Assembly (NCBI RefSeq): GCF_006345805.1
Contig: NW_021835437.1
Span: 9,033-73,032 of the forward strand
DNA: 64,000 nt
DNA from: Octopus sinensis
Taxonomy: Eukaryota
Direction of reading: 5' to 3'
The translations under genes were made by a program, and so were the position numbers. Shown piece after piece: positions 53,236 through 63,780 of the stretch. The notes beneath the pieces were generated by a model that made no database searches, was not told the DNA's origin, and was given only the letters and a program-made list of their open reading frames with translations. Positions within the stretch are counted from its first letter, which is position 1. Each line of letters begins with the position of its first letter.

Positions 53236-55079
53236 CTATATTATATATAGAAACGCACGTTGTATCATCAGTAGTAGAACTATTATATTTATACAAGAAA
53301 TTCATTTAAAATTTTCACATGACACTATTTCATTTATTTCAATTTCGCCACTAGACAGTCCGAATCAGTAAAAATCTCTGCTTCTGTTTTTGTTTCTCAT
53401 CATGAACATGTCTAAAAGTTTCAAACAGCGAAAGCATGTTTGATCTCCTGAAACGACTCTCAGTTATTGGCACATTAAACTTGACCGTCAAACGCAACAG
53501 AAGAAATAAAACATTGTCTGAATATAGGAACGTGTCATTAAATTCGTTTTATAACCGCACATGGTTTTCATGTCCAATTTCCTATTTATAATGGCCGTGA
53601 GTTCATTATATTTTCGTTAAACCTGCTTATTACACTTGCCTTGCTAGCTGTACGTTTGTTTTCAATCTAGCGTTCATAAAAGATTTTATGAAGATAATGA
53701 TGCGAAATAATCAATTACATCAACACACGGCCTTAGATGGCGTCAACTTTGACAAGCATGTACAACTAAATACAAAGAAATTAATATGAAGTCTACATTA
53801 GTTTGCGATTAGACGTTACTTCTTCCCCGTCTCCGACCAGTTCTCTGTTCTCTGAGCAGTATTTCACGCTTTAGAAATCTTTAACTATAGCCATCTTAAT
53901 CTTACTAAACTGTAAATACGTACCACAGTGAAGTTTACCGGTTGAACCACCAGGGTTATTGTGAAATTCAGAACTGAATTTAACAAGTGAAATATCTGAG
54001 ACGTGTCGCCGACATCTCAGCATCATGTATGCAATAACTATGAATATTAATTCGCTAGCTGTGCAGAACGATTAAGACAATTAAGGAATCTATGGTGAAG
54101 CAGTTAGCTTCGTCTCCACCTGGTTTCGGTTTCAGCCCCATTTACTGCAAATGTAAAGCAAGACCGATGACGTCCAACACGTCAGCTGTGCAGAAGTTTA
54201 AAGATGGTGGAGGCAACACTGTATGGTTAAGTATTTCGGTTTGTAACTACGCGGTTTCAGTTTCAGTCCCAACGCACGTCCTTAATAACGTTACAAGTCG
54301 CAACGTGTGACCCGCATCAGCATCTCAGCTCTTCCATGCGATGACGTATAACTTTCAAACTGTCAGCTAAGCAGAGATTTAAAGACATTATGCACAATGT
54401 TAGACAGTTAGAATCGGAAGTAAAAGACTTCGGTTCAATCACGCTGCACAACCTACATAAAATTAAACAAGAACTGAAACATGTCACCAGTTTTTAAATG
54501 GTTAGTTGTGCAGAAATGTAAAGAGGTTAGAGGCAAGAATATAAGGTTACGTGGTGAGCTTCAGGTTCCGTTTCATTACATTTCATAAATAAAAACGTAA
54601 AAAGAACCAACGCAATAAGAGGACAATCCCAGAGTAAAGGCTACCAATTTACTACTTAAAACGTAACAAAACCAAATGACTGACATTAGCTATATCTTAA
54701 ATCGTTATTACATTATATAGGAAGAAATAACAGAAAATATCAGTTCAATGGTTGGATTCCAGCGCCGAATCTAATATCAAGTATTCTTATTAATAGTCAT
54801 CTGTGTGGCGCAATGAGTCTGTTGAATAAAAATGTATATAGCATGTTTTTACACATGGTCACGTGGCATGGAATACCAACAAAAACGTGCAAAATTCCGA
54901 GATGAATCACAGATGAGTTCTAAAGATAAATTCCAAGAAAGAGAGTTCAATGGTTTTACAGATGTGTATGTGTGCATATGATGATGATGATGATGACAGA
55001 CTCTCCCGTCGATGACAACATATGAGTATTTTGTGCCGAATGATCTGCATGAATGATTTGTTTATAGGGATCATTTGTG

Positions 55080-62592: not shown

Positions 62593-62663
62593 TAACAAAT
62601 GTAGTTGTAAGTACCCGCACGAATGGAATTATATATAAAGTTTTGAAAATGCATTTTAAAAGA

Positions 62664-63110
62664 TACTCTTTTACTCTTTTACTTCTTTCAGTCATATGAC
62701 TGCGGCCATGCTGGAGCACCGCCTTTAATCGAGCAACTCGACCCCGGGACTTATTCTTTTGTAAGCCCAGTATTTATTCTATCGGTCTCTTTTGCCGAAC
62801 CGCTAAGTAACGGGGACATAAACACACCAGCATCGGTTGTCAAGCAATGCTAGGTGGACAAACACAGACACACAAACACCGCACACGCATATATATATAT
62901 ATATATAATATATATATATATATATCTATAATATATAATATATATATACGACGGACTTCTTTCAGTTTCCGTCAACCAAAGCCCCTCACAGGCTTTGGTC
63001 GGCCCGATGCTATAGTAGAAGACACTTTCCCAAGGTGCCACGCAATGGGAGTGAACCCGGAACCGTGTGGTTGGTAAACAAGCTACTTACCACACAGCCA
63101 CTCCTGCGCC
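62664..63110 (-). mobile_element. SINE family A, full length, with internal (TA)n
   Basis: Complete head to (GAGTAAAA)n-like tail. Confidence 0.93.
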
Positions 63111-63537: not shown

Positions 63538-63780
63538 TGGTAAACAGTAAAAATAATTACAGACATGGACAAGAAACATGAACACCACAGAGACGACACA
63601 AGAACCACAGGACGGAAACATTCGAAGCCCTCAGTCATCAGTCAAGAACCAGATCATCTTAGCAATTTCGGCTGATTAATCTTGAGATTGCTCCGATATG
63701 GCCAGCCCGCCAAGGGAAATCTAAGCCAAGCGCATTAGATCCCCTGGAAGAAAGCTTCGAATGTATACAACGCGAGGACG
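63538..63780 (-). mobile_element. (TA)n-flanked structured non-coding module, probably PLE-related
   Basis: Several long helices; shares the 14-mer ACAACGCGAGGACG with the PLE terminus at 36642. Confidence 0.6.
63631..63692 (-). ncRNA. Candidate non-circularly permuted hammerhead ribozyme
   Basis: AGCAA-TC-TCAAGA ttaa TCAG cc GAAA-TTGCT [13 nt] TCTTGA-CTGATGA-CTGA; all three stems and both core motifs present, in swapped strand order. Confidence 0.6.

What the first reader, a model, noticed from the sequence alone, without database searches (positions are those of the whole stretch)
63631..63692. Candidate strand-swapped (non-circularly permuted) hammerhead ribozyme
Seen: the minus strand reads AGCAA-UC-UCAAGA-uuaa-UCAG-cc-GAAA-UUGCU-aagaugaucuggu-UCUUGA-CUGAUGA-CUGA. 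Stem III (AGCAAU/AUUGCU, 6 bp), stem I (UCAAGA/UCUUGA, 6 bp), stem II (CUGA/UCAG, 4 bp), CUGAUGA, GAAA and an AUC triplet (cut after 63686) are all present. Established: HHR types I-III are circular permutations of the order [UH]-[CUGANGA]-[GAAA]. Here the order is [UH]-[GAAA]-[CUGANGA], which no circular permutation gives, so standard descriptors would miss it. Inference: it folds as a pseudoknot. A 4-nt linker joins the tips of stems I and II, which lie side by side in the active fold, and a 13-nt linker joins stem III to stem I. It could instead act as a dimer or in trans. Caveats: there is a CC bulge before GAAA, and the linker can alternatively pair with upstream GCCAUAUC. As I recall, rearranged hammerheads have been reported from computational screens, so novelty needs checking.
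Basis: partly seen in the sequence, partly recalled or inferred. Interest (0 to 1): 0.9.

Follow-up and report, generated by a model that had tools for sequence, protein, structure and literature searches.

The report
Split-core hammerhead ribozyme in animal retroelements
A self-cutting RNA motif wired in a strand order not found in our literature searches sits at the end of thousands of copies of octopus jumping repeats, and the same or a related rearranged motif is readable in Naiad retrotransposons of several animal groups that were reported to lack such ribozymes; cutting itself has not yet been tested.

Summary
The motif is real, but one stem was misread. It lies in a 242-bp 5'-truncated copy of a ~780-bp non-coding repeat with Penelope-like features (4,433 exact copies of its core). 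Stems I and III, CUGAnGA, GAAA and the NUH site hold up by covariation. The strand before GAAA pairs instead with an upstream strand (63703-63707), giving G10.1-C11.1, and an 8-bp helix bridges stems I and II. The backbone is therefore opened between A9 and G10.1, where two extra helices form a four-way junction. Non-circular hammerheads are known (Eckert 2023), but that work assumes this block cannot be split. Five groups with unrelated stems in this genome share the layout. By eye, 8 of 35 published Naiad 3' ends show it and 7 show intact type CSG, which would explain why Naiads were said to lack canonical hammerheads. Copies' 5' ends pile up just 3' of the predicted cut (about 30 per base, against 3 upstream), an indirect sign of cleavage in vivo. 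Cleavage is untested.

The parts
63539..63780 (-). 5'-truncated copy (242 bp) of a ~770-785-bp non-coding repeat unit (family A), flanked by (TA)n on both sides
   Evidence: longest stop-to-stop frame inside the unit 128 aa
63750..63764 (-). 5' strand of closing helix P0 (15 bp with 63618-63632)
   Evidence: 0 of 200 random controls reach the score
63710..63747 (-). hairpin P4, ending 2 nt before G10.1 (0 nt in most other families)
63703..63707 (-). true 5' strand of stem II, starting with G10.1 (63707)
   Evidence: 92.5% paired, 2 of 5 pairs with double changes; different 5-6 bp stems in families N, E, F, G
63695..63702 (-). 5' strand of the helix that bridges stems I and II (one mismatch in this family)
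   Evidence: 92.2% paired, 2 of 8 pairs with double changes
63686..63692 (-). stem III 5' strand, U16.1 (63687) and C17 (63686); predicted cut between 63686 and 63685
   Evidence: truncation pile-up
63680..63685 (-). stem I 3' strand
   Evidence: 100% paired, 3 of 6 pairs with double changes
63675..63679 (-). 5-nt linker joining the tips of stems I and II
   Evidence: 1-5 nt in other families
63661..63674 (-). stem II 3' strand (63674-63670, C11.1 at 63670), GAAA (63669-63666), stem III 3' strand (63665-63661)
63648..63655 (-). 3' strand of the bridging helix
63635..63647 (-). stem I 5' strand (63647-63642) and CUGAUGA (63641-63635); N7 varies (U, A, G) between families
63618..63632 (-).

Best explanation
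This is a hammerhead ribozyme in the terminal repeat of a non-autonomous retroelement that most likely depends on Naiad-type Penelope-like elements. Its strands run: stem II 5' strand, bridging helix, stem III and cut site, stem I, short linker, stem II 3' strand, GAAA, stem III, bridging helix, stem I, CUGAnGA. This is the connectivity of the published type CSG, but opened between A9 and G10.1. A closing helix (P0) leaves from A9 and a hairpin (P4) leads into G10.1, so they probably stack on each other as a four-way junction beside the stem II/III stack (inferred). One RNA molecule can fold it alone. It cuts the element's transcript about 147 nt from the 3' end. The element's reverse transcriptase starts at a fixed 3' end in a (TA)n tract and stops at or shortly before the cut end in a minority of copies. 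It otherwise reads on through uncut, rejoined or circular RNA and lays down head-to-tail units (inferred). Shown: sequence, repeat structure, covariation, truncation counts. Inferred: catalysis, 3D arrangement, dependence on Naiad.
For: Four core helices 94.5% paired over 8 copies, 9 of 25 pairs with double changes, 0 of 500 shuffles as high on pairing and covariation score, slid controls 17-44% paired. The same layout with unrelated stems in families N, E, F and G of this genome, with NUH triplets AUC, AUA, GUA, GUC, GUU. P0+P4 at the A9/G10.1 junction beats random controls in 6 of 8 families (<=9 of 200). Family N matches the 3' end of the published autonomous Naiad_Ovul (295 exact hits, 0 control). 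By-eye parse of 35 of 54 Naiad 3' ends: 8 split form, 7 intact CSG. Fixed 3' end at (TA)n in 26 of 27 loci that match the anchor; variable 5' ends and tandems. 5' junctions with (TA)n per base, reverse-strand counts: about 2.8 at -25..-6 (55), about 30 at -5..+7 (411 minus 55), about 7 at +15..+31 (26 of 65 listed loci scaled to 295). Type SGC and CSG RNAs with the same bridging helix cleave in vitro (PMC10085705).
Against: No cleavage was measured, and the RNA runs were contigs only. A large insertion between A9 and G10.1 contradicts the assumption in PMC10085705 that only 1-2 nt fit there, so it could slow or kill catalysis. In family A the bridging helix has a mismatch and the junction has 2-nt spacers. 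P0/P4 did not beat controls in family B (48 of 200) or the Naiad family N (24 of 200), and the automatic pick in E differed from the fold. Many old copies have broken cores: the scan passed 9 of 15 B loci, 8 of 20 C loci and 5 of 12 N loci. The 8 aligned copies are related, so the shuffle test is lenient. The truncation peak overlaps an AT-rich stretch with microhomology to (TA)n, the three windows used different anchors, and 2,170 reverse-strand copies span the cut intact. The RT-like fragment upstream of an N copy had no Pfam hit. Family A shares no long sequence with the Naiad body. 19 of 35 Naiad ends showed no hammerhead in the 450-600 nt seen.
Confidence: 0.78

Rival explanations
1. One reading: an ordinary type-SGC hammerhead whose stem II is CUGA/UCAG with a CC bulge; the upstream pairings are switches or chance.
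For: 4 bp can form in families A and D and in some B copies; family F has a 4-bp downstream option with two G-U pairs. Type SGC is validated (PMC10085705).
Against: No G10.1-C11.1 pair; 78% paired against 92.5%; absent in C, N, E and G; the downstream strand is taken up by P0.
Confidence: 0.06
2. The fold is conserved but is not catalytic, or only with a protein. It serves as a recognition or RT-pausing structure derived from a hammerhead.
For: Metazoan PLE hammerheads cleave poorly in vitro (PMC4209133). Most copies read through the site. The truncation peak could be a stall at a pseudoknot.
Against: All catalytic nucleotides are kept while N7, H17 and every stem vary as the hammerhead rules allow. 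Other Naiads carry an intact CSG form at the same place.
Confidence: 0.12
3. The active form is a dimer or strand-swapped pair between neighbouring tandem units.
For: Tandems are common, and minimal PLE hammerheads work as dimers (PMC4209133).
Against: All stems are long and non-palindromic, and they close within 150 nt of one unit. No stem II strand follows CUGAnGA, so a dimer would still be split at A9/G10.1.
Confidence: 0.04

Closest known systems
Type-CSG and type-SGC non-circularly permuted hammerheads (Eckert et al. 2023, PMC10085705)
   Same: [quoted passage not shown]
   Different: There block C is intact, and none was found in a genome of a known organism except one doubtful GCS case; CSG rests on 2 unique soil-DNA sequences. 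Here block C is split at A9/G10.1 by two extra helices, and the motif is in thousands of copies in an animal genome. Their CSG descriptors need stem II directly after CUGAUGA(U)G and cannot match.
Naiad Penelope-like elements (Craig et al. 2021, PMC8557442)
   Same: (TA)n insertion bias, partial tandems and 5' truncation. The 3' end of Naiad_Ovul carries the same split layout and shares bridging-helix letters with families A-D.
   Different: That paper reports no canonical hammerhead in Naiads and only flags 'HHR_core' or 'HHR_half_core'. The window's element has no ORF of RT size.
Non-LTR retrozymes and PLE type I hammerheads (PMC4209133; bioRxiv 10.64898/2026.07.22.740005)
   Same: [quoted passage not shown]
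   Different: Those are type I, circularly permuted, often minimal and dimeric, and were found with type I descriptors.
Pseudoknot (PK) hammerhead with an additional stem-loop (Zhan et al. 2024, PMC11300833; first described by Weinberg 2015, not held)
   Same: An extra helix and a pseudoknot around helix II.
   Different: [quoted passage not shown]

Membership tests
Hammerhead ribozyme | CUGAnGA, GAAA and NUH core nucleotides | tested here: met
Hammerhead ribozyme | Stems I, II, III with covariation; A15.1-U16.1; R10.1-Y11.1 | tested here: met
   with the upstream stem II; for distant families
Hammerhead ribozyme | A9 followed by G10.1 with at most 1-2 inserted nucleotides | tested here: not met
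   two helices and the RNA ends lie between them
Hammerhead ribozyme | Tertiary contact between stems I and II | tested here: met
   bridging helix 92% paired; weak in the one G copy examined
Hammerhead ribozyme | Site-specific self-cleavage after H17 | not testable with these tools
   only indirect: truncation counts
Rfam hammerhead families (types I-III) | Covariance-model match | tested here: not met
Type SGC (Eckert 2023) | Order S, G, C of the core nucleotides | tested here: met
Type SGC (Eckert 2023) | Stem II 5' strand directly after CUGAnGA | tested here: not met
Type CSG (Eckert 2023) | Intact block C at the 5' end | tested here: not met
   not met for the window's family; met by eye in 7 nematode and spider Naiad ends
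Naiad Penelope-like element | (TA)n targeting, fixed 3' end, 5' truncation, partial tandems | tested here: met
Naiad Penelope-like element | ORF with N-terminal GIY-YIG endonuclease and RT | tested here: not met
   unit has no frame over 128 aa: non-autonomous
Naiad Penelope-like element | Mobilised by Naiad protein | not testable with these tools
   inferred from shared ribozyme layout and target

The most novel reading that the evidence does not exclude
A seventh natural hammerhead topology, opened at a helix inserted into the catalytic core between A9 and G10.1 and built on a four-way junction, is active in vivo. It is the standard ribozyme of Naiad retrotransposons in molluscs, cnidarians, a ctenophore, an ostracod and an acanthocephalan, while nematode and spider Naiads use type CSG. 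Non-circular hammerheads would then be common in animal genomes, and the 3' end of Naiads becomes a place to look for further unknown ribozymes.
Probability: 0.7. Interest if true: 0.9.

Novelty: new variant of a known kind. Interest (0 to 1): 0.83.

Why it matters
It would break the stated rule that hammerhead core blocks cannot be interrupted, and move non-circular permutations from a few hundred environmental sequences to thousands of copies in animal genomes. It would also explain the reported absence of canonical hammerheads in Naiads. The two forms (CSG and split) in one element clade offer a path for how such permutations evolve. The pile-up of truncations gives a genome-scale way to test whether Penelope-type ribozymes cut in vivo, which is an open question. 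A core that tolerates two helices at A9/G10.1 is a new docking site for engineered switches.

Tried and rejected
Rfam: only microsatellite-driven weak matches in the window and none at gathering score in 6 loci. Second scan hit in the window at 53271-53375: nearly all A-U pairs, taken as chance and not followed. RNA evidence: all 24 runs listed are contigs, so ends, strand and level cannot be read; 4 were laid. One of them has a loose end at 63588 that I recognise from recall as a cDNA template-switch primer, a weak hint only. Full-length Naiad in this genome: 4 extended loci gave only a 78-aa RT-thumb-like fragment without a Pfam hit, so the link to an RT rests on the published consensus. Of 20 stretches fetched from the loose pattern, the scan passed the targeted site in 1 (L107) and an extra copy in L094. 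The others were truncated or decayed copies, chance hits or another repeat without hammerhead stems. The automatic parse failed for family F (one search is used instead). Naiad ends with no hammerhead parse in the text shown: 1_Chem, 2_Chem, 4_Chem, 1_Movir, 1/2/3_Dst, Sdum, Tama, Mmer, Scon, Mcor, CGi, Tgra, Omin, Adux, 1_Skow, Ppac, Asuum. Earlier findings of the scan: no look-alike sequence and none with all words. No covariance model was built, because two of the four helices are pseudoknots. R-scape was not available.

Full report
Observation. A descriptor scan puts C17 at 63686, G12 at 63669 and C3 at 63641, with 6-bp stems I and III. None of 60 dinucleotide shuffles of the window gave a hit of that strength. 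Rfam has no hammerhead match.

Context. The motif lies in a 242-bp piece (63539-63780) between two (TA)n tracts. The genome (2.72 Gb) holds many near-identical copies: 1,476 candidates, the best 40 at 98% or more, and 4,433 exact matches to an 18-base pattern spanning the predicted cut, 0 for the control. The full unit is about 770-785 bp, occurs head to tail and is variably 5'-truncated. It ends at one position before (TA)n in 26 of the 27 loci that match the anchor (3 of 30 did not match; two pairs of loci share an array). No frame inside the unit exceeds 128 aa. This is the pattern of a non-autonomous Penelope-like element. That the host is an octopus is my inference from the match to Naiad_Ovul.

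What covaries. Diverged copies keep stem I through compensatory changes and vary only N7 in CUGAnGA, but the four bases after CUGAnGA are not conserved. The CAGCC before GAAA pairs instead with GGCUG at 63707-63703, upstream of the whole core, giving G10.1-C11.1. The next 8 bases pair with the linker just before stem I. On 8 representative copies this four-helix model is 94.5% paired, with 9 of 25 pairs changed on both sides; slid controls are 17-44% paired. These copies are related, so the stronger evidence comes from distant families. N (295 exact pattern hits), E, F and G have different letters in every stem yet the same layout, with 5-6 bp upstream stems II that start with a purine-pyrimidine pair. 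Downstream pairing is 0-2 bp in C, N, E and G; F has a 4-bp option with two G-U pairs.

The junction. A closing helix P0 starts 0-2 nt after A9, and a hairpin P4 ends 0-2 nt before G10.1. With a random downstream start, the same score was reached in 0, 3, 1, 0, 3 and 9 of 200 trials for A, C, D, E, F and G, but in 48 for B and 24 for N. In N the short P0 and P4 are seen by eye only. The natural reading is a four-way junction in which P0 stacks on P4 and stem II stays on the core (inference).

Naiads. Craig et al. (PMC8557442; passages; supplement metadata) found no canonical hammerhead in Naiads and flagged core halves 35-50 nt apart. I read 450-600 nt at the 3' end of 35 of their 54 consensus sequences by eye; names are inferred from file order. 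Eight show the split form with P0 and P4: Obim, Ovul, Amil, 3_Chem, 2_Movir, Bfor (stem I only 2 bp), 4_Dst and Plae; P0 is short and imperfect in the two octopus sequences. Seven show an intact type CSG: Parc, 1/2/3_Nbra, Hcon, Hpol and Smim. Esco has stems I and III and the bridging helix but an uncertain stem II. Nineteen gave no hammerhead parse in the text shown. No program checked these parses.

A footprint of cutting. If the template RNA is cut, reverse transcription from the 3' end should stop near the cut. I counted copies whose 5' end abuts a TA run, using reverse-strand counts because those rows appear once per locus. Starts at -25..-6 from the cut: 55, about 2.8 per base. Starts at -24..+7: 411, so about 356 at -5..+7, about 30 per base; among 23 listed loci, 17-19 start at +1..+7 and 4 upstream. 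Starts at +12..+31: 295; by hand, 39 of 65 listed loci start at +12..+14 and 26 at +15..+31, about 7 per base. Controls were 0. The peak lies on the 3' side of the predicted cut and falls about tenfold upstream. Caveats: the anchors differ, the peak covers an AT-rich stretch with microhomology to the target, a structural stall is possible, and 2,170 reverse-strand copies span the cut intact. Public RNA runs were contigs only and cannot show ends.

Mechanism. Most likely (0.78) a single transcript folds into a standard hammerhead active site with pseudoknotted connectivity and cuts about 147 nt from the element's 3' end. Unit-length RNA, possibly rejoined or circular as proposed for PLEs (PMC4209133, passages), is copied by a Naiad-type RT into (TA)n. 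Catalysis, the 3D model and the helper are inferred.

Comparison and novelty. Eckert et al. (PMC10085705; main text parts 1-6 of 8; supplement part 1 and passages) validated types SGC and CSG, assumed the three blocks cannot be interrupted, and found none in genomes of known organisms apart from one doubtful GCS case. The window's RNA works like their CSG and SGC forms but fails membership of both on the continuity of block C. Ten full-text searches returned no paper on non-circular hammerheads in animals or Naiads, or on helices inserted between A9 and G10.1. Passages read in PMC3088659, PMC11300833, PMC13725137, PMC10162972 and a 2026 retrozyme preprint (passages and part 1 of 5) describe other variants. 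Limits: subscription papers are not searched; Weinberg 2015 was not held; the supplement of PMC10162972, cited for new ribozyme architectures, and the preprint's supplement were not seen and could hold such a form.

Verdict. A real and conserved structure, a new variant of a known kind, interest 0.83. The decisive test is an in vitro cleavage assay with the upstream stem II disrupted and rescued.

Noticed in passing
PMC8557442 supplement File S5, 3' ends of Naiad Parc, 1/2/3_Nbra, Hcon, Hpol, Smim: Intact type-CSG hammerheads, each with different stems. The two soil-DNA CSG sequences of Eckert 2023 have the same layout and might come from such elements (speculation).
   Followed up: partly
PMC8557442 supplement File S5, 3' ends of Naiad CGi, Tgra, 1_Skow, 1_Chem, 2_Chem: A different conserved motif sits near the 3' end of these elements; a candidate other ribozyme, not identified.
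   Followed up: no
PMC8557442 supplement File S5, 3' ends of Naiad Mmer, Scon, 4_Chem, 1_Movir: Motifs that look twister-like; the label is from recall and untested.
   Followed up: no
PMC8557442 supplement File S5, 3' ends of Naiad 1/2/3_Dst and 5' ends of Obim, Ovul, Omin: CUGAnGA next to complementary strands that I could not fit to any hammerhead layout.
   Followed up: no
L108-L115 and L116-L123: Two further repeat families (E, F; 1,629 and 2,198 candidates) with zero-spacer four-way junctions; E has copies at 97-99% identity and would suit a cleavage assay.
   Followed up: partly
L119:2324-2899 (+): GIY-YIG-like fragment (Pfam E 0.0024, below cut-off) 650 bp after a family F ribozyme; link unclear.
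   Followed up: partly
L088, L089, L092, L094, L095, L097, L098: Another common repeat with GAAA followed by CUGAYGA but no hammerhead stems.
   Followed up: no
window 53271-53375 (-): Weak second descriptor hit, almost all A-U pairs; probably chance.
   Followed up: partly
window 62660-62880 and 62950-63110: Two other repeat-like stretches between microsatellites; similar letters recur in the flanks of fetched loci.
   Followed up: no
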